59,285 nt of DNA from an uncultured Elusimicrobiaceae bacterium (GCA_964622585.1 CAZUQT010000001.1:1-59285); one strand, 5' to 3'; shown: positions 2,472 through 55,866, counted from the stretch's first letter. The notes: a model not told the origin generated them from the letters alone. A program made the numbers and translations.

Positions 2472-3971
2472 ATGGATAAAACAGCGTACCTGAGCGTTTA
2501 CGACAAGACAGGGCTGGAGGAATTCGCCCTCGGCCTGGAAGCGCTCGGCTTCGGGATCTACGCTTCCGGTTCCACCTATAAACTTCTGGCCGAGGCCGGC
2601 ATCGAGGCGGAGGAAGTCCGGTATTCCCCGCCGGTGCCTTACGCCGTGCTTAAGGCTATGTCGGGGCGTTTCCCCGCCGTTTCCGAGAACGGAGTGGAGC
2701 TGCCGGGCTTTTACGTAGTGGCCGCCAACCTTTACCCCATAGCCAGCATAGTCGGCCAGGAGGAGTTCGCCATCGGGGAGCTCTCCAGCTATCTTGACCA
2801 GGCCAACTCCGCCGTGCTGCGCGCCGCCGCCCGCGATTTCGAGAATGTTATTACGGCGTCCAGCCCGGCGGATTACGCGCCTTTGCTCCTCGCCCTTAAA
2901 GAGGCCGGCGGCCTCGAGCCGGAAGTGAAGAAGCAGCTGGCCGCCAGGGCCTGGCAGCACCTGGCCGCTTACGACGCCACCGTGGCGCAGTACCTTTCCG
3001 AGACCGGAAACCTGCTGGGCGACGAAGTGGTGCTGAGCCTGAAAAAAGTCTCGGACCTGGAGTACGGGGAGAACCGTCACCAGAGAGCCGCTTTCTACGC
3101 CCTCAGCGGCGCCCGCCCGCGCGGCCTCAACGCCGCGAAGACCCTGGCCGGGGCCGGGCTAAACCTCAATCACTACCTCGACCTGGATACCGCCTTCGAG
3201 CTCGCTCTCGAATTCGAAGAGCCGGTCTGCGCTATTTCAAAGCACGACAGGCCGACCGGAGTCTGCGCCGCCGGCACGCAGGCGGAGTCCCTGCGCTGCG
3301 CCTTAAAGAGCGACCCTGCGGGGGCGGTCGGCGGAACCGCCGCTTTCAACCGGCAGGTAGAGAGCGAGACGGCCGCGGTTCTGGCCGGAACTTTTATCGA
3401 AAGCGTGATCGCCCCGGAATACAGCCCCGAGGCGCTTAAAATACTGCGCGCCAAGGAAGGCCTGCGGGTGCTGTCGCTTTCCGCCCCCGTGCTTTCCCCT
3501 TACGAGGTGGAGCTGCACTCCGTTTCCGGCGGAGTGCTGATAGAGTCCAAGGACAACAGGCTTTTTTCCTCGGAGCCCGCCTGCGTCACCAGGCGCAAGC
3601 CCTCCGACGCCGAGCTGCGGGCGCTGCTTCTGGCCTGGAAAACCGTCAAATACGCCAAGACCTACGCCGCCGTGCTCGCCGAGGGGCACAATGTCCTGGC
3701 CGTCAGCGCTTCGGAAAGCTCCAGTTACGACGCGGTCAGGAGCGCCCTCTGGAAAATGCGCGACAAGCGCTCCATCCTGCCCGGCTCCGGCCCGCTGGTA
3801 ATGGCCGCCGACGCGGCGCTCCCTCTCAAAACGCTGCAGGCCGCGCTGGCCGGCGGCGTCAGCGCCGTCATCCAGCCCGGCGGCTGGCAGGACGACGAAG
3901 ACTGCATAAAACTCTGCGACTCCAAGAACGCCGCGATGCTCTTCGCCGGTATAAGACATTTCAGGCACTGA
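2472..3971 (+). CDS. purH: PurH-family protein (AICAR transformylase/IMP cyclohydrolase-like), divergent at several conserved motifs
   Basis: Family landmarks present: YLSVYDKTGLEEFA (MGS-like N-terminus), LEYGENRHQRAAFY, SKHDRPTG, FIESVIAPEY, and the typical C-terminus VIQPGG...MLFAGIRHFRH. It starts 9 nt after the upstream stop. The motif deviations are listed in the findings. Confidence 0.75.
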   Translation: MDKTAYLSVYDKTGLEEFALGLEALGFGIYASGSTYKLLAEAGIEAEEVRYSPPVPYAVLKAMSGRFPAVSENGVELPGFYVVAANLYPIASIVGQEEFAIGELSSYLDQANSAVLRAAARDFENVITASSPADYAPLLLALKEAGGLEPEVKKQLAARAWQHLAAYDATVAQYLSETGNLLGDEVVLSLKKVSDLEYGENRHQRAAFYALSGARPRGLNAAKTLAGAGLNLNHYLDLDTAFELALEFEEPVCAISKHDRPTGVCAAGTQAESLRCALKSDPAGAVGGTAAFNRQVESETAAVLAGTFIESVIAPEYSPEALKILRAKEGLRVLSLSAPVLSPYEVELHSVSGGVLIESKDNRLFSSEPACVTRRKPSDAELRALLLAWKTVKYAKTYAAVLAEGHNVLAVSASESSSYDAVRSALWKMRDKRSILPGSGPLVMAADAALPLKTLQAALAGGVSAVIQPGGWQDDEDCIKLCDSKNAAMLFAGIRHFRH

Positions 3972-4099: not shown

Positions 4100-6010
4100 A
4101 TGACTGACTCTTCTAAGCACCCAAAATATATTCTGGCAATCTTGCTTTGTTTCTTTTGTTCGCTTAATAGCCTTGATGCCAAAGTTTCTGGGAAAGAAAT
4201 TGATAGTGTTATGCAAAGTCTGAAAGACAGAAGTTTTTTTAAGTGGCAATCTGCGCTTTCAGAGCTCAGGAATAGAAAGGATGCTGAGCAGTTTATCCCG
4301 GAGTTAAGCAAACTGCTGACAGGGGCAGAACAGGCATATGCATACAGAGCAAGCGAAGCATTAGCGGCCCTCGGAAAAGAATCAATCCCGGCTTTAAGAC
4401 AGGCGCTTAAAATAGTTCCAGACAGAGAGGGGATAATCATCAAGGCCCTAGGCACTATAGGGGAAGATGCCCTTCCGGAACTTACTACCATAGCAGACGA
4501 CCCCTTAAGAAATTTATCTACCCGCAGTTTAGCTCTGAATGCGATAGGAGATATTAATATGCCTGCAGGGAGAAAGATTCCTTTGCTCGAAAGGTATCTT
4601 TCCGACCCTTCAGAGACTGTGCAAAACGAGGCAATCGTTGCAATAGCTAAATCCGGCCCTGCAGCCAAAGATGCTTTATCAAAACTGCTTCGCTTTCTTG
4701 AAAGTCCGTCAGTCTCCATTAGACGTGCCGCTGCAAGCGCGATAGCCGACATAGTCGATAGATCCGCTGTGCGAGTTGTCCCTCAATTGATTAAAGCCTT
4801 GGCGCATAAAGATCTTGAAGTTAGAATATCCATGGTTAGAGCCCTGGGTAACATTGGTGCCGTTAGTGATGACATCGTGCCGGCGTTAATTCTGTTGATT
4901 GCCGATGAGCAGGGGGGGGCTCCGAGCACCATTGAACCCCATAGTAATATGCTCAATGACGTATATAGCATTGTTCCTGCTTCGAGCGAGAGACGTAATA
5001 ATAGCAATAGACAGGTAAAGTCAGCCGCAATTGCCGCGCTGGGGAGGATAGGGCCTCCGGCGATAAACGCAATCCCGGATTTAGTGGCGGAATTTAACGG
5101 GGACGATGAGCTGGCCACGCAGGTTATTGAAGCTATTGTCAAGATCGGTCCCAGTTCGTCTTCTGAACTCTCAGCCTTAGTGGATGGACTTTTCTCTTCG
5201 GTTCAAAGAATTCGGGCAAGCTGTGTGGAGGTGTTAAGACGGTTGGGGCCTAAGGCAGCGGTTGCTATGGGTAAAGAACTCGGTTCGTCTGGCGGCGAGC
5301 GGAAAATTGTTATTCTGGAAGCTCTTGGCTATATGGGACCTGGTGCTAAAGACTCTCTCCCGGAACTGATGTCGTCTTTACGAGACAAAAGTATCGCTGT
5401 CCGCCAAAAAGCTCTGGTAGCACTTGGTTATATAGGTCCGGAGGCTGCGCCGGCCATTCCTGAAATTAGTCAGCTCCTTAAAGGAAAAAGTGCCGGGGTA
5501 ACAGAAAGAGCAAGAGAAGCGCTGGACAGGATCGGCCCGACCAAAATTCCGGAATACATAGATATTGGTGCTGATCGTCAATTGCAGGCCGCTTTAGAAA
5601 AGCAATACGACAAAGCGGAAGAAAAGCTTTATAACAATACGCCGTTTTACGTGGTGGCGGGAGAGTTCCGTAAGGTAATGTGGATGCGTCCTGAGGTATT
5701 TGGCCGGCACGAGAGTCTTGATTGTTCGCTGTGTGACGAGGATTATCCGTATAGAGCGAAAGAAGTCTTGGCTCAAATTGACGCGTTAATGAAATGGACC
5801 GGGAGCCCTACGGGTGAGCCGATATTGGTCTCAACGATAAAATACATGGACAAGCAATACATGGATAGCAGGGAATTTTATGAGCTGCTTGCGTTGCGGC
5901 GGGAATGGGCATCTGCAAATCAGGGGTGGCTGATATCTACAGGTGGGCTGAATTGGAACCGCTATATGTCGACTTCTGCTGACAGGCCGCAGCGACAGCA
6001 CCCAAAATAA
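4100..6010 (+). CDS. secreted HEAT / PBS-lyase-type repeat protein (AT-richer gene) with a non-repeat C-terminal ~140 aa
   Basis: Signal-like N-terminus (KYILAILLCFFCSLNSLDA/K). There are more than ten ~30-aa helical repeats of the form ..VR..A..ALG.IGP.A..A.P.L..LL.D (e.g. VRISMVRALGNIGAV, VRQKALVALGYIGPEAAPAIPEISQLLKG). Codon usage visibly shifts to A/T-ending codons relative to the flanking genes. Confidence 0.8.
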   Translation: MTDSSKHPKYILAILLCFFCSLNSLDAKVSGKEIDSVMQSLKDRSFFKWQSALSELRNRKDAEQFIPELSKLLTGAEQAYAYRASEALAALGKESIPALRQALKIVPDREGIIIKALGTIGEDALPELTTIADDPLRNLSTRSLALNAIGDINMPAGRKIPLLERYLSDPSETVQNEAIVAIAKSGPAAKDALSKLLRFLESPSVSIRRAAASAIADIVDRSAVRVVPQLIKALAHKDLEVRISMVRALGNIGAVSDDIVPALILLIADEQGGAPSTIEPHSNMLNDVYSIVPASSERRNNSNRQVKSAAIAALGRIGPPAINAIPDLVAEFNGDDELATQVIEAIVKIGPSSSSELSALVDGLFSSVQRIRASCVEVLRRLGPKAAVAMGKELGSSGGERKIVILEALGYMGPGAKDSLPELMSSLRDKSIAVRQKALVALGYIGPEAAPAIPEISQLLKGKSAGVTERAREALDRIGPTKIPEYIDIGADRQLQAALEKQYDKAEEKLYNNTPFYVVAGEFRKVMWMRPEVFGRHESLDCSLCDEDYPYRAKEVLAQIDALMKWTGSPTGEPILVSTIKYMDKQYMDSREFYELLALRREWASANQGWLISTGGLNWNRYMSTSADRPQRQHPK

Positions 6011-53939: not shown

Positions 53940-54111
53940 AATCTTCCCTGCGCACGGCAGGCTTATAATCAGACTTATGTACGGCCCGAACTGCTGCAAA
54001 ACAAAAAACGACCGCGCCACGCGGCAATATTTCTTTTTAGTCCGTTCTGACCGCAAAAGGCCGTGAAACGGTACGCGCAAAAGAATTGCCGCAAAGCGTA
54101 GATATTAAAAC

Positions 54112-54140
54112 ATTATAATATAAAAACAGCGTTTCGAGAA
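54112..54140 (-). promoter_or_regulatory. weak candidate promoter for the HEAT + giant gene unit in an AT-rich patch
   Basis: The minus strand reads TTCTCG (54140-54135), 17 nt, TATAAT (54117-54112), inside the only strongly AT-rich stretch (54100-54160) upstream of the HEAT gene. The -35 is poor. Confidence 0.3.
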
Positions 54141-54302
54141 TATTATATATATATGAACGGGCCGGAGCCCGCCTGGAAGATCTCTCTACACCCTTGGCCG
54201 CGCTGAACATTTTTCCTCCCCGACTTTCCTATTGAGGTTGAGCCTCGATAAATTCCTGCCGAGGCTTCGCCTCGCCAAAAAGGCCCTGCTTCCCGGACAG
54301 CC

Positions 54303-54374
54303 AAAAAAAGACCGCTTCTGCTCTCTTCGCCTTAACCCGGTGCTGGGCTAATACCCCGAAGACAGCAGAAACGG
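54303..54374 (-). terminator. intrinsic-terminator-like hairpin with a U7 tract (minus strand)
   Basis: The minus strand reads CCGTTTCTGCTGTCTTCG (54374-54357), a 27-nt loop, CGAAGAGAGCAGAAGCGG (54329-54312), then TCTTTTTTTGG (T7 = 54309-54303). The 18-position stem has 16 Watson-Crick pairs, one G-U and one mismatch. Confidence 0.6.
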
Positions 54375-54508
54375 CCTAAATCCGTTCCAAACACGCCGGC
54401 ACTGACCGGACGGTCTTTCATCTTCGGCAGCCTGACCCCCGCGTATTTAGCGGGTCTTAGCTTTGCGCCGCCGGCTTTAGCCGGCTTTGCTATTATCGGA
54501 CACTACCC

Positions 54509-54652
54509 AAATAAAACGCCTCGCCCATCTGGGACACACACCGCGCCTACACTACCGCACCGCGTCTGTCTGCGACCGCAACCGCCCGCAACTGCACCGC
54601 ACCTGCTCACTACCAAGCCAGATGGGCGAGGCACTGCACTACACCGCACTGC
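54509..54652 (-). ncRNA. candidate ~145-nt small RNA or leader element (promoter-to-U-tract unit), family unknown
   Basis: It starts ~7 nt downstream of a consensus promoter (next feature). A 15-bp perfect inverted repeat, GCCTCGCCCATCTGG (54632-54618) / CCAGATGGGCGAGGC (54532-54518), encloses 85 G/U-rich nt. GTTTTATTT (54517-54509) follows at once. No plausible ORF. Confidence 0.45.
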
Positions 54653-54658
54653 AAATAT

Positions 54659-54686
54659 ATTATAGCAGATAGAGAGCTGTTGTCAA
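54659..54686 (-). promoter_or_regulatory. near-consensus sigma70-type promoter (minus strand) with extended -10
   Basis: The minus strand reads TTGACA (54686-54681), 16 nt, TGcTATAAT (54667-54659). A second TTGACA lies at 54708-54703. The GTCAAG/CTTGAC half-sites in 54682-54709 form short inverted repeats. Confidence 0.6.
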
Positions 54687-54750
54687 GGCCCAATTCTTGA
54701 CTTGTCAAGACCATGGCCGCGCCGCATCCAGGGCCATGTTCTTCGGACGG

Positions 54751-55866
54751 CTAGCGGCGCGCCCCGGCGTCAAAAAGGCCGGCGGCAGCGGCATAGGCCG
54801 CGTCTCCGAGCAGGGTCGTCTCCCTGGAATCGTCCCAGACCCGGCCTGGCGCGCCGGCTTTAAGGTCAGGCTCCGCGCCCTTCCCCTCCATATCCAGTCC
54901 TGAAGGCGGGAACATCCTCGCTACGGACAGTTCCAGGCCGCGCCCGTCGCCGAGGCTGAAGGCGCGCACCAGCGAGACGCTGCCGGCCATGGGCTCCCCT
55001 ACCAGCGCGGCACCGGAGAGTTCTTTAAGGGAGCGGGCGAAAACTTCAGCGGCCTTGGAGGTTCCTGAATTGACGATCGCGACCTGTCTCATCCCGGCGA
55101 ACCGCCCCTTTTCCGCCGCGCCGTAAAGGGCCGAATAGCCTTTATGGCGGGACCTGACCTCGAAAACCGGGCCGGCTTTGGGCGCGAAAGCCCTAAGGAC
55201 CTCCGCCGCCTCCGCGGGCACGCCGCCCGGATTGTCCCGGAGATCGAAAATAACGTTCACGGCCCCCACCCGGTACAGCGCGTCCAGGCCGGCCAGCACG
55301 GCCTTCGAGGAACCCTCGAAAAAAAGGCCCAGGCGCAGAAAAGCCGTGCGGGAATCCCGGTCGTAAAAAGCGAAAGAGGGAGGGAAGAAGAAATCGTTCC
55401 TGGCCACATCGGCCTCGAAAGGACCGGCGGCGCCCCGGTGCTCCGCTTTCAGACGGAAGAAAGCGCCGCCCTCCACGCGCCGGCGGACCGCGTCCGGAGA
55501 GGCCGCCTCGCCGTCCAGCGCCAGCACCCTGTCCCCGTCCCTGAAGCCGGCCGCGGCCCCTGGCGAGTCGCTGAAAACTTTCAGGATAAAGATCCCGCCG
55601 CGGCGCTCTCCGAAGAGGAGGCCGGATGAAAAATTCCTTTCCGAGGGCCTGGCCTTAACCGGCCGCCTGGCTTTCAGCACCAGCGCGTGCCGGTCCAGCT
55701 CGGCGAGCCCGGCGGCGCCTTTCTCCTTCAGCAGGCCGGAGATCTTCTGCGGGGAATATTCCTCGTAGCTGTGGCGGGAAAATATTTTAAGGACTTCCTG
55801 CTCGGGAAGCTTCCCGGAGCAGGCCGCGGCGAAAAGCGGGAAAATCAAAAGCAGCTTTTTTTTCAT
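54751..55866 (-). CDS. S41-family (C-terminal processing peptidase-like) PDZ lipoprotein with non-canonical dyad positions
   Basis: Lipoprotein-type signal MKKKLLLIFPLFAAAC/SG. PDZ-like segment GIFILKVFSDSPGAAAGFRDGDRVLALDGE. S41 core motifs VIFDLRDNPGGV and VAIVNSGTSKAAEVFARSLK...LVGEPMAGSVS...PPSGLDMEGKGAEPD. SD GGAG lies upstream of the ATG at 55866. Confidence 0.8.
   Translation of the reverse strand: MKKKLLLIFPLFAAACSGKLPEQEVLKIFSRHSYEEYSPQKISGLLKEKGAAGLAELDRHALVLKARRPVKARPSERNFSSGLLFGERRGGIFILKVFSDSPGAAAGFRDGDRVLALDGEAASPDAVRRRVEGGAFFRLKAEHRGAAGPFEADVARNDFFFPPSFAFYDRDSRTAFLRLGLFFEGSSKAVLAGLDALYRVGAVNVIFDLRDNPGGVPAEAAEVLRAFAPKAGPVFEVRSRHKGYSALYGAAEKGRFAGMRQVAIVNSGTSKAAEVFARSLKELSGAALVGEPMAGSVSLVRAFSLGDGRGLELSVARMFPPSGLDMEGKGAEPDLKAGAPGRVWDDSRETTLLGDAAYAAAAGLFDAGARR

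What the first reader, a model, noticed from the sequence alone, without database searches (positions are those of the whole stretch)
54509..54710. Consensus promoter driving a ~145-nt hairpin-closed, GCGGUG-rich RNA ending in a U-tract: candidate novel sRNA or leader
On the minus strand, TTGACA-16 nt-TGcTATAAT (54686-54659) is the best promoter match in the window. It lies in non-coding DNA 65 nt after the S41 gene stop. The predicted transcript begins near 54652. It soon forms a 15-bp perfect stem (54632-54618 with 54532-54518) around an 85-nt G/U-rich interior, and runs straight into GUUUUAUUU (54517-54509). The RNA contains four exact GCGGUG hexamers (one just 5' of the stem, three inside it) plus related GCGGU(U/A) copies and many GG doublets. 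The plus strand correspondingly carries CACCGC repeats. The unit has no ORF. A second TTGACA and GTCAAG/CTTGAC inverted half-sites (54682-54709) overlap the -35 region like an operator. It sits immediately upstream of the HEAT+giant unit, so it could be a trans-acting sRNA, a protein-sequestering RNA or a terminator/antiterminator-type leader.
Basis: partly seen in the sequence, partly recalled or inferred. Interest (0 to 1): 0.65.

Follow-up and report, generated by a model that had tools for sequence, protein, structure and literature searches.

The report
Repeat-rich RNA domain before c-di-GMP riboswitch
The flagged promoter and hairpin are real, but they form the first part of a longer untranslated leader in Elusimicrobia that runs on into a c-di-GMP riboswitch ahead of a 13,565-codon gene; this first part is a conserved RNA domain that matches no described family.

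Summary
These are a unique 12/12 sigma-70 promoter, a 15-bp long-range stem, an 85-nt G/U-rich interior, four GCGGUG copies and a U-tract.

Its own terminator (54374-54303) follows, and then the HEAT and giant genes.

The module recurs once per locus at the same syntenic site (FtsH, unknown, S41, leader, HEAT, giant) in about 30 Elusimicrobia contigs. The closing stem has compensatory changes at 7 of 16 pairs, and its G.U pairs fit only the sense strand. The G/U-rich sequence is an array of G-Y-R-G-U pentamers spaced 5-6 nt apart. It is non-coding, not mobile and absent from Rfam.

Metatranscriptome contigs end near the predicted start. They show both read-through into the aptamer and, in two relatives, signs of 3' ends at the U-tract.

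More distant relatives carry the domain without the aptamer, or the aptamer behind only a small hairpin. The two parts are therefore separable modules.

Best reading: a leaky terminator that encloses a multivalent protein-binding platform, in series with the riboswitch. The binding factor is unknown.

The parts
54696..54709 (-). Palindrome CTTGACAAGTCAAG (core TTGAC-N2-GTCAA), centred about -50 from the start. It is a candidate binding site for a dimeric transcription factor.
   Evidence: Read. It is conserved as TTGAC(GC/AT/TT/CT/AC)GTCAA in nearly all class A, A' and C loci and absent in class B (L038, L041).
54659..54686 (-). Sigma-70 promoter: -35 TTGACA (54686-54681), 16-nt spacer, extended -10 TGcTATAAT (54667-54659).
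   Evidence: 12/12 match and the only one in the window. TTGACAA and TGCTAYAMT are conserved in all 25 distinct leaders.
54633..54652 (-). Predicted +1 (G54652) and the 5' flank GCAGU GCGGU GUAGU GCAGU, which is four G-Y-R-G-U pentamers.
   Evidence: RNA contigs of relatives end at 54637-54648 and are followed by Illumina adapter (X23, X27, X33). The number of units in this flank ranges from 1 to 23 among orthologues.
54618..54632 (-). P1 5' arm GCCUCGCCCAUCUGG. It extends to 54635 with G.U and A-U pairs.
   Evidence: Covariation: 7 of 16 pairs have changes on both sides, and 99.7% of cells are paired.
54533..54617 (-). 85-nt G/U-rich interior with 11 RGU units at 5-6-nt spacing. It holds the invariant block GCGGUCGCAGACAG (54579-54566). 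It also holds the predicted helix P2: GACAGACGCGGUGC (54570-54557) paired with GCGCGGUGUGUGUC (54546-54533), with two G.G mismatches.
   Evidence: Spacing statistics, position weight matrix, unit counts. The blocks are invariant in L002-L006, L036 and L040, which were found through proteins. P2 appears in nearly every MFE fold but has no covariation.
54518..54532 (-). P1 3' arm CCAGAUGGGCGAGGC (extended to 54515).
54509..54517 (-). U-rich tail GUUUUAUUU. Together with P1 it forms the terminator-like site T1.
   Evidence: 19 of 25 leaders begin the tail with GUUU. The X29 contig matches to 54506 and then turns into the A-rich sequence AACAAGAAAAAGAAAG. In the L032-like relative the RNA contig ends inside the U6 tract and depth falls from 61.7 to 18.
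54423..54501 (-). c-di-GMP-I (GEMM-I) riboswitch aptamer.
   Evidence: RF01051 scores 53.9 bits against a gathering score of 35. The related model RF03167 scores 47.9 against 59. The same aptamer is present in L001-L006, L035-L037, L039, L040 and L043.
54303..54374 (-). Riboswitch expression-platform terminator T2. An 18-bp stem (CCGUUUCUGCUGUCUUCG with CGAAGAGAGCAGAAGCGG) encloses about 27 nt and is followed by UCUUUUUUU.
   Evidence: Read and folded. It is conserved in the relatives. RNA contig coverage ends at 54303-54304 in several runs.

Best explanation
The flagged element is the first domain of a composite untranslated leader, about 350 nt from +1 to T2. The leader is specific to one clade of Elusimicrobia.

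A very strong promoter, guarded by an upstream operator, starts transcription at about 54652. The nascent RNA is an array of G-Y-R-G-U pentamers. A C-rich segment (54632-54618) later pairs with 54532-54518 to form a long-range helix, P1. P1 closes about 85 nt of further pentamers plus an invariant core (GCGGUCGCAGACAG and the P2 hairpin).

P1 followed by GUUUUAUUU acts as a leaky intrinsic terminator, T1. Part of the transcripts end there as an abundant RNA of about 145 nt. The rest read on into a c-di-GMP-I riboswitch with its own terminator, T2, which makes the second decision before the HEAT and giant genes.

I infer that the periodic pentamers (a triplet plus a 2-3-nt spacer, about 10 per interior) are a multivalent platform for an oligomeric RNA-binding factor. 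Binding of that factor would set how well P1/T1 forms, and the released short RNA could titrate the same factor. This resembles TRAP-type attenuation in logic but not in sequence.

Shown: promoter, RNA helix, linkage to and co-transcription with the riboswitch, modularity, non-coding and non-mobile nature.
Partly shown: start site and termination at T1.
Inferred: the protein platform and its regulatory effect.
For: - Promoter: unique 12/12 match, conserved.
- RNA 5' ends: contigs of relatives stop at 54637-54648 and run into adapter.
- P1 helix: 16 pairs, 7 with compensatory double changes, 99.7% of cells paired, 0 of 500 shuffles reach the observed score, and shifted registers collapse to 36-60% paired. 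U.G and G.U pairs in L002, L003 and L023 are allowed only on the sense strand. More distant loci (L037, L038, L041) have a P1 of unrelated sequence in the same place.
- P1 stability: 9-25 kcal/mol better than the best fold without P1, and present in every MFE fold.
- Linkage: 25 of 25 real metagenome pattern hits, and every protein-anchored class A locus whose contig reaches upstream of the aptamer, carry the aptamer directly downstream. There is one copy per locus. Synteny is conserved while S41 identity falls to 36-57%.
- Co-transcription: RNA contigs span 54303-54590, 54412-54572, 54405-54606, 54412-54606 and 54471-54648.
- T1 termination: the tail begins GUUU in 19 of 25 leaders. The X33 contig, 100% identical to L032, ends inside the U6 tract at depth 61.7, while the junction contig has depth 18. 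The X29 contig, 99% identical to the window, leaves the genome sequence at 54506 for an A-rich tail.
- Repeats: RGU spacing of 5 nt (126 times) or 6 nt (65 times). The unit is G(82%)-C/U-R-G-U. Interiors hold 5-12 units, median 10. The count is enriched threefold over shuffles.
- Modularity: class B loci (L038, L041) have promoter, domain and terminator but no aptamer. Class C loci (L039, L043) have a mini-hairpin, U4 and the aptamer.
Against: - No binding protein is identified. The neighbouring HEAT protein looks exported (hydrophobic N-terminus).
- An 85-nt interior is far from a canonical terminator loop, and termination efficiency is untested.
- The U-tract is poor in L003, L005, L006, L013 and L018, so termination cannot be the only conserved role of P1.
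- RNA evidence comes from assembled contigs of relatives, not reads of this organism. Contig depth is a poor measure, contigs carry no strand, and DNA contamination is possible. One soil contig (X28) runs through the promoter.
- The interior may be structured (P2 and a three-way junction) rather than a single-stranded platform.
- The invariant blocks were part of the search pattern for 25 loci. Independent support rests on 7 protein-anchored loci.
- The pentamers could be slippage products tolerated in a loop. L004 and L014 differ by exactly one GCGGT unit.
Confidence: 0.45

Rival explanations
1. It is a stand-alone trans-acting sRNA or protein sponge. The RNA of about 145 nt released at T1 is the functional product, for example a decoy for a protein that binds G-Y-R-G-U. 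The downstream riboswitch merely shares the promoter.
For: - The consensus promoter implies high output.
- The domain is detected in more than 20 metatranscriptomes, at depths up to about 100.
- There is a depth drop and a contig end at the U-tract, and a possible tailed 3' end.
- Class B loci have promoter, domain and terminator without any aptamer, which looks like an sRNA gene.
Against: - In class A the domain is always fused to the aptamer, only 11-60 nt away.
- Read-through contigs are common.
- The tail is degenerate in several orthologues.
- No target or partner protein is known.
- There are no GGA motifs, so it is not a Csr/Rsm-type sponge (sequence).
Confidence: 0.25
2. It is an orphan riboswitch aptamer in tandem with c-di-GMP-I. 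The invariant core at a three-way junction (P1, P2, P3) binds a small molecule or ion. Ligand-stabilised P1 is itself the terminator stem, which would give a two-input gate.
For: - The blocks GCGGUCGCAGACAG and GUGUGUGUCCCA are invariant at the junction while the flanking proteins fall to about 43% identity.
- P2 abuts P1 directly.
- P1 is followed directly by a U-tract.
- Tandem riboswitches with separate terminators are an established arrangement (my knowledge: the Bacillus clausii metE SAM plus AdoCbl leader).
Against: - Half of the interior is low-complexity repeat of variable length (30-56 nt).
- Class A' and class B domains lack the invariant blocks altogether.
- There is no covariation inside the interior, and the L006 changes break P2 pairs.
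- The downstream genes give no hint of a metabolite.
Confidence: 0.12
3. It has a passive structural role. The hairpin protects or insulates the 5' end of the riboswitch leader. The C-poor, G-rich repeats are a Rho-resistant spacer that expanded by slippage inside a tolerated loop.
For: - Class C relatives have only a 6-8-bp hairpin at the same place.
- Repeat number varies 1-23 in the 5' flank, and by single 5-nt units between close relatives.
- The composition is 47% G and 19% C. C-poor RNA is a poor Rho substrate (my knowledge).
Against: - The invariant 14-nt and 12-nt blocks, and a fairly constant 5-12 units inside P1, argue for selection on the interior.
- The domain persists without the riboswitch in class B.
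- The U-rich tail is retained in most loci.
Confidence: 0.13
4. The feature acts at the DNA level. GCGGTG/CACCGC repeats could serve as an array of protein sites, as G-quadruplex or R-loop-forming non-template DNA, or as Chi-like motifs. Alternatively the inverted repeats could be the ends of a MITE.
For: - GG tracts recur with 3-nt spacing, so two-tier quadruplexes are possible (sequence).
- The repeats are strictly strand-biased.
Against: - P1 covariation with G.U pairs that are valid only on the sense strand shows selection on RNA.
- 31% of units are GYAGU, which lack the GG tract.
- There is no second copy in the window, all copies sit at one syntenic site, and there are none in IMG/VR viral contigs.
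Confidence: 0.04
5. It encodes a small Cys/Gly-rich peptide: the 48-codon GTG ORF at 54649-54503.
For: An open frame spans the element.
Against: - Distances between conserved blocks take all values modulo 3 among orthologues.
- There is no Shine-Dalgarno sequence.
- A-poor sequence is stop-poor by composition alone.
Confidence: 0.01

Closest known systems
TRAP-controlled trp leader of Bacillus subtilis (attenuation by an 11-mer protein ring binding (G/U)AG triplets)
   Same: Both have a conserved triplet plus a 2-3-nt spacer, giving a 5-6-nt period. Both have about 10 units in an untranslated leader, next to an intrinsic terminator, and the number of units varies between genes or species.
   Different: - The motif here is G-Y-R-G-U, not (G/U)AG.
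- The units lie inside and 5' of the terminator stem rather than over an antiterminator.
- No TRAP-like protein is known in Elusimicrobia.
- The resemblance is one of organisation only, and rests on my recall of the TRAP system.
Tandem riboswitch leaders with two independent terminators (e.g. SAM plus AdoCbl in Bacillus clausii metE)
   Same: Both have two structured domains in series in one leader. Each is followed by its own stem plus U-tract, upstream of one operon.
   Different: Only the second domain is a recognised aptamer (c-di-GMP-I). The first matches no Rfam family at E <= 10, and half of it is low-complexity repeat.
c-di-GMP-I (GEMM-I) riboswitch, Rfam RF01051 / variant RF03167
   Same: The element directly downstream (54501-54423) is a member of this family (53.9 bits against a gathering score of 35). 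As is often the case for this class, it precedes surface or matrix genes.
   Different: The flagged domain is outside the aptamer model. To my knowledge, and in two literature searches, no accessory 5' domain of this kind has been described for GEMM-I.
Protein-sponge sRNAs (CsrB/RsmZ) and riboswitch-linked sRNAs (EutX/Rli55, SreA)
   Same: All have many copies of a short motif in an abundant short RNA made from a strong promoter and ended by a terminator. In the riboswitch-linked cases, a riboswitch sits in the same transcript.
   Different: - There are no GGA motifs here.
- The repeats precede the riboswitch, so the riboswitch cannot decide whether they are transcribed.
- Trans action is untested.

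Membership tests
Any Rfam 15 family (for the 54652-54505 domain) | Covariance-model match at or near the gathering score | tested here: not met
   A sensitive cmscan of 54050-54800 at E <= 10 returned only the aptamer and one spurious plus-strand hit. Nothing fell in 54505-54655.
c-di-GMP-I riboswitch (RF01051), adjacent element | Covariance-model score at or above the gathering score over the full model | tested here: met
   53.9 bits against 35, model positions 1-87 of 87, at 54423-54501 on the minus strand. Orthologues score 52-57 bits.
Intrinsic (Rho-independent) terminator | G+C-rich stem directly followed by a U-tract | tested here: met
   A 15-18-bp stem is followed by GUUUUAUUU. The tail begins GUUU in 19 of 25 orthologues and is poor in L003, L005, L006, L013 and L018.
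Intrinsic (Rho-independent) terminator | Compact hairpin (loop of a few nucleotides) | tested here: not met
   The stem encloses 71-98 nt, and the consensus terminator scan does not report it.
Intrinsic (Rho-independent) terminator | RNA 3' ends in the U-tract | tested here: inconclusive
   There is a contig end inside U6 with a 61.7 to 18 depth drop in an L032-identical RNA contig. The X29 contig leaves the genome sequence at 54506. Read-through contigs also exist. All of this comes from contigs, not reads.
TRAP-type attenuator | (G/U)AG triplets | tested here: not met
   The conserved triplet is (G/A)GU within G-Y-R-G-U.
TRAP-type attenuator | About 9-11 triplets separated by 2-3-nt spacers | tested here: met
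   Spacing is 5 nt (126 times) or 6 nt (65 times). Each interior holds 5-12 units, median 10.
TRAP-type attenuator | Cognate ring-shaped RNA-binding protein in the genome | not testable with these tools
   Only a 59-kb window and short flanks are available, and none of the scanned neighbouring proteins has a recognisable RNA-binding domain.
Csr/Rsm-type sponge sRNA | Multiple GGA motifs, many in hairpin loops | tested here: not met
   There is no GGA in 54652-54509 (sequence).
MITE / mobile repeat | Many dispersed copies bounded by the inverted repeats | tested here: not met
   - The arms occur only once, as this pair, in the window.
- nhmmer finds one copy per locus.
- All copies lie at the same syntenic site.
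- There are no hits in viral contigs.
Protein-coding small ORF | Reading frame conserved among orthologues | tested here: not met
   Block-to-block distances take the values 0, 1 and 2 modulo 3.

The most novel reading that the evidence does not exclude
The G-Y-R-G-U pentamer domain is the RNA half of an undescribed attenuation or titration system in Elusimicrobia. An oligomeric RNA-binding protein, or a small ligand acting at the invariant three-way junction, would control a terminator whose stem encloses its own binding platform. This would work in series with a c-di-GMP riboswitch as a two-input gate for expression of 12,000-13,500-residue proteins. The terminated RNA could double as a trans-acting decoy.
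Probability: 0.3. Interest if true: 0.8.

Novelty: new variant of a known kind. Interest (0 to 1): 0.6.

Why it matters
1. It adds a conserved RNA domain that matches no Rfam family, has strong covariation support, and comes from a phylum with almost no experimentally studied regulation.
2. It shows that some of the largest bacterial genes known (12,000-13,500 codons) sit behind a c-di-GMP-I riboswitch and a second, unknown checkpoint. The giant-gene survey I checked mentions neither. This gives a concrete handle on when such genes are expressed.
3. The periodic pentamer array enclosed by a terminator stem is an unusual design. If a cognate protein exists, it would be a second, independent example of TRAP-like repeat-reading attenuation.
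4. The three natural variants (domain plus aptamer, domain alone, aptamer alone) are ready-made controls for experiments.

Tried and rejected
- **Rfam:** gathering and sensitive scans gave no family for the domain.
- **MITE or mobile element:** rejected.
- **Small peptide:** rejected by the frame test.
- **HEAT protein as the RNA binder:** unlikely, because its N-terminus is hydrophobic and signal-like.
- **Long-range pairing of the invariant AGACAG with CUGUCU in the T2 5' arm:** rejected. The T2 sequence varies (GUCGUCU, GUUGUCU, GCUUUCU) while AGACAG does not.
- **Processive antitermination (EAR/put-like):** rejected as the main idea. It would defeat the riboswitch terminator that lies downstream.
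- **Interior helix P2:** predicted in nearly all folds, but it has no compensatory changes and the L006 substitutions disrupt it, so it is left as unproven.
- **Alternative nascent pairings of the C-rich 5' arm with neighbouring repeats:** these exist but are 9-25 kcal/mol weaker than P1, so they do not amount to a convincing antiterminator.
- **Hammerhead-like reading of the small insert in L002:** rejected. There is no GAAA core and no Rfam hit.
- **Literature:** searches for Elusimicrobia with riboswitch, and for c-di-GMP riboswitch with GU-rich, found nothing relevant.
- **RNA runs of the organism itself:** none found. Only DNA runs hold the full sequence.

Full report
**1. Observation**

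- **Promoter.** TTGACA, 16 nt, TGcTATAAT (54686-54659) scores 12/12. It is the only such match on either strand of the window, and the next best is 10/12.
- **Stem.** GCCUCGCCCAUCUGG (54632-54618) pairs perfectly with CCAGAUGGGCGAGGC (54532-54518) around 85 nt. GUUUUAUUU follows at 54517-54509.
- **Fold.** The 151-nt RNA folds at -73.6 kcal/mol (z = -5.1).
- **GCGGUG copies.** Four lie within about 110 nt, where about 0.07 is expected from the window-wide rate.
- **Corrections.** The palindrome CTTGACAAGTCAAG (54709-54696) lies upstream of the -35 hexamer, not over it. A mechanical 48-codon ORF overlaps the element.

**2.

Rfam finds a c-di-GMP-I riboswitch aptamer at 54501-54423 on the same strand (53.9 bits, gathering score 35). 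It starts 8 nt after the U-tract. It is followed by a second long-stem terminator, T2, at 54374-54303: an 18-bp stem and then UCUUUUUUU.

Downstream come a conserved SD+ATG short ORF, an AT-rich block, the HEAT-repeat gene and a 13,565-codon ORF at 53136-12439.

The sensitive Rfam scan finds nothing in the flagged domain itself.

**3. Relatives**

- **Protein-anchored loci.** The HEAT protein retrieved six orthologous loci from Elusimicrobia MAGs. All carry the aptamer. All five whose contig extends upstream also carry the operator, the promoter and the G/U-rich hairpin domain.
- **Pattern hits.** A pattern from two invariant blocks found 26 metagenome contigs, of which 25 are real. Every real hit has the same promoter upstream and the aptamer downstream.
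- **Synteny.** The gene order FtsH-like, unknown 497-aa protein, S41 peptidase, leader, HEAT, giant is conserved while S41 identity falls to 36-57%.
- **Copy number.** A profile search finds exactly one copy per locus and one in the window. The pattern is absent from IMG/VR viral contigs.
- **Conclusion.** This is a single-copy, vertically inherited regulatory region and not a mobile repeat.

**4. Anatomy of the domain**

- **P1.** The closing helix has 16 pairs. Seven show changes on both sides (C-G to U-A, U-A to A-U, U-A to C-G). Overall 99.7% of cells are paired, no shuffle reaches the observed covariation, and shifted registers collapse to 36-60% pairing.
- **Strand.** U.G and G.U pairs occur in L002, L003 and L023. 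They would be C.A mismatches on the other strand. The selected molecule is therefore the sense RNA.
- **Stability.** P1 is in the MFE fold of every orthologue and is worth 9-25 kcal/mol.
- **Repeats.** The G/U-rich sequence is a tandem array of pentamers, G(82%)-C/U-R-G-U, often with one spacer base. RGU triplets are spaced 5 nt (126 times) or 6 nt (65 times) apart.
- **Unit counts.** The interior holds 5-12 units (median 10). The 5' flank holds 1-23. Close relatives differ by single 5-nt units.
- **Invariant blocks.** GCGGUCGCAGACAG and GUGUGUGUCCCA are invariant in the interior. This includes the seven loci that were found through proteins rather than through the pattern.
- **P2.** Most folds predict P2 (GACAGACGCGGUGC with GCGCGGUGUGUGUC, two G.G mismatches) stacked on P1. 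P2 never covaries, and the L006 changes disturb it.
- **Coding.** Distances between blocks take all values modulo 3, so the region is not coding.

**5. Transcription evidence**

No RNA run holds the organism itself, but more than 20 metatranscriptomes hold related sequence.

- **Limits of coverage.** Laid on the window, RNA contigs cover 54303 to about 54648 and nothing beyond in most runs.
- **5' ends.** In X23 and in X27/X33 the contigs run from the 5' edge straight into the Illumina adapter. The inferred 5' ends are 5'-(GG)GCAGCGCGGUAG... and a point 10 nt beyond 54648. This supports a start at or near the predicted G54652.
- **Read-through.** Contigs spanning hairpin and aptamer show co-transcription: 54303-54590, 54412-54572, 54405-54606, 54412-54606 and 54471-54648.
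- **Ends at T1, first observation.** A contig 100% identical to L032 (depth 61.7) ends inside that locus's U6 tract, while the contig bridging into the aptamer has depth 18.
- **Ends at T1, second observation.** A contig 99% identical to the window follows it to 54506 and then continues as AACAAGAAAAAGAAAG. This may be a post-transcriptional tail.
- **Caveat.** These are assembled contigs without strand information. I treat them as supportive, not decisive.

**6. Modularity**

Loci fetched through more distant S41 homologues give four variants of the same site.

- **Class A** (L036, L040, and L035 after an inserted DUF4143 ATPase gene): the full module.
- **Class A'** (L037): the same operator and promoter, a P1 of unrelated sequence (CCCCGUUAGAGGCGC with GCGCCUCUAACGGGG), a G-rich GCGGU-containing interior without the invariant blocks, a U-rich tail and the aptamer.
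- **Class B** (L038, L041): promoter, G/U leader and P1 domain, with no aptamer. A T2-like terminator follows directly.
- **Class C** (L039, L043; S41 36% identical; 12,230-codon gene): operator, promoter, only a 6-8-bp hairpin plus CGUUUUG, then the aptamer.

The domain and the riboswitch are therefore separable. A hairpin plus U-rich linker before the aptamer is the most widely shared feature.

**7. Mechanism**

*Shown:*
- A strong, operator-flanked promoter.
- A sense-strand RNA helix under selection.
- Obligate linkage to, and co-transcription with, a c-di-GMP-I riboswitch in this clade.

*Partly shown:*
- The start site.
- Partial termination at P1 plus the U-tract.

*Inferred:*
- The periodic pentamers form a multivalent platform for an oligomeric RNA-binding factor, which would modulate P1/T1.
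- The abundant terminated RNA could titrate that factor.

The organisation of a triplet plus a 2-3-nt spacer, with about 10 units next to a terminator, resembles TRAP-binding leaders. The motif differs, and no such protein is known here. This comparison is my recall, not a test.

The riboswitch platform looks like an OFF switch, because the T2 5' arm can pair with the CCGA(U/A)A segments of the aptamer. This is an inference only.

Rival readings are scored in the Rival explanations section: free sRNA or sponge, orphan aptamer, passive insulator or Rho-resistant spacer, and DNA-level roles. I put about 0.85 on 'conserved cis-leader RNA domain of the riboswitch transcript', about 0.6 on 'leaky terminator' and about 0.35-0.4 on 'protein platform'.

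**8. Novelty**

- The aptamer is a known family.
- The 5' domain matches no Rfam family.
- Two literature searches found no description of it.
- The giant-gene survey does not mention riboswitch or c-di-GMP control.
- I rate it a new variant of a known kind: a composite attenuator leader that contains a new RNA motif.

**9. Limits**

- The invariant blocks were used as the search pattern, which is an ascertainment bias.
- Only flanks of contigs were available, so dispersed copies elsewhere in these genomes cannot be excluded beyond about 340 kb of sampled sequence.
- There are no strand-specific reads, and nothing was tested experimentally.

Noticed in passing
window 54423-54501 (-) and 54303-54374 (-): A c-di-GMP-I riboswitch aptamer and its long-stem terminator lie directly downstream of the finding and upstream of the HEAT and 13,565-codon genes. 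The aptamer scores 53.9 bits on RF01051. On the variant model RF03167 (c-di-GMP-I-GGC) it scores 47.9 bits, below that model's gathering score. Distant orthologues L039 and L043 pass the RF03167 threshold, so ligand specificity is not fully certain.
   Followed up: yes
window 54037-54210 (-); AT-rich block 54104-54140: After T2 there is a conserved SD+ATG (GGGAGGAAAAAUG) that opens a 57-codon ORF. In about 10 orthologues the same frame runs on into the HEAT signal peptide. The ORF contains the nucleotide-invariant block TTTGCGAAA..TTTATATTATAATGGTTTAAT. That block reads ..CET..LYYNGLI.. but also looks like a second sigma-70 promoter (TTGCGA, 16 nt, TATAAT). Whether it is a uORF or N-terminal extension, or an internal promoter that bypasses the riboswitch, is unresolved.
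   Followed up: partly
L002 3010-3060, L010, L025 (3' of P1); L003 3335-3385 (5' of P1): A small inserted hairpin is flanked by GAUGA/GAU-type sequences that resemble box C/D (UUGAUGAGCAUAGCUCUCGAUGCGG and CCGAUGGGCAUAGCCCCUGAUACGG). It looks like a kink-turn and sits at different positions in different lineages.
   Followed up: no
L012, L033, L022, L024: first ~100 nt of the leader: These leaders carry an extra long hairpin (GUCCCACCACCCGGCCG...CGGCCGGGUGGUGGGAG) right after the start. About 100 nt of additional pentamer repeats follow before P1.
   Followed up: no
L038 ~3880-3930 and L041 ~3400-3460: In the aptamer-less class B loci the terminator is followed by a perfect heptamer tandem repeat, (CGGCTTA)n, with different copy numbers in the two loci.
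   Followed up: no
L016 1772-8638, L036 4354-6125: In two lineages the same leader precedes a cluster of glycosyltransferase-2/radical-SAM fusion proteins and an LPG-synthase-like/methyltransferase protein, in place of HEAT plus giant. The regulon is therefore 'surface/matrix' rather than one fixed gene.
   Followed up: partly
L035 3803-5005: An AAA_14/DUF4143 ATPase gene is inserted between the S41 gene and the leader. The leader module is intact further downstream (5123-5330).
   Followed up: partly
L001 position 1; L019 end; L009 end: Several assemblies break exactly at or inside the G/U-rich domain. L001 starts at the linker before the aptamer, and L019 ends in the U-tract. This suggests that repeat or strain variation there fragments the assemblies.
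   Followed up: no
window 12439-53136 (-), 4100-6010 (+): The first 1000 residues of the 13,565-codon ORF have no Pfam match. A second, larger HEAT-repeat protein (636 aa) is encoded on the other strand about 48 kb from the leader.
   Followed up: partly
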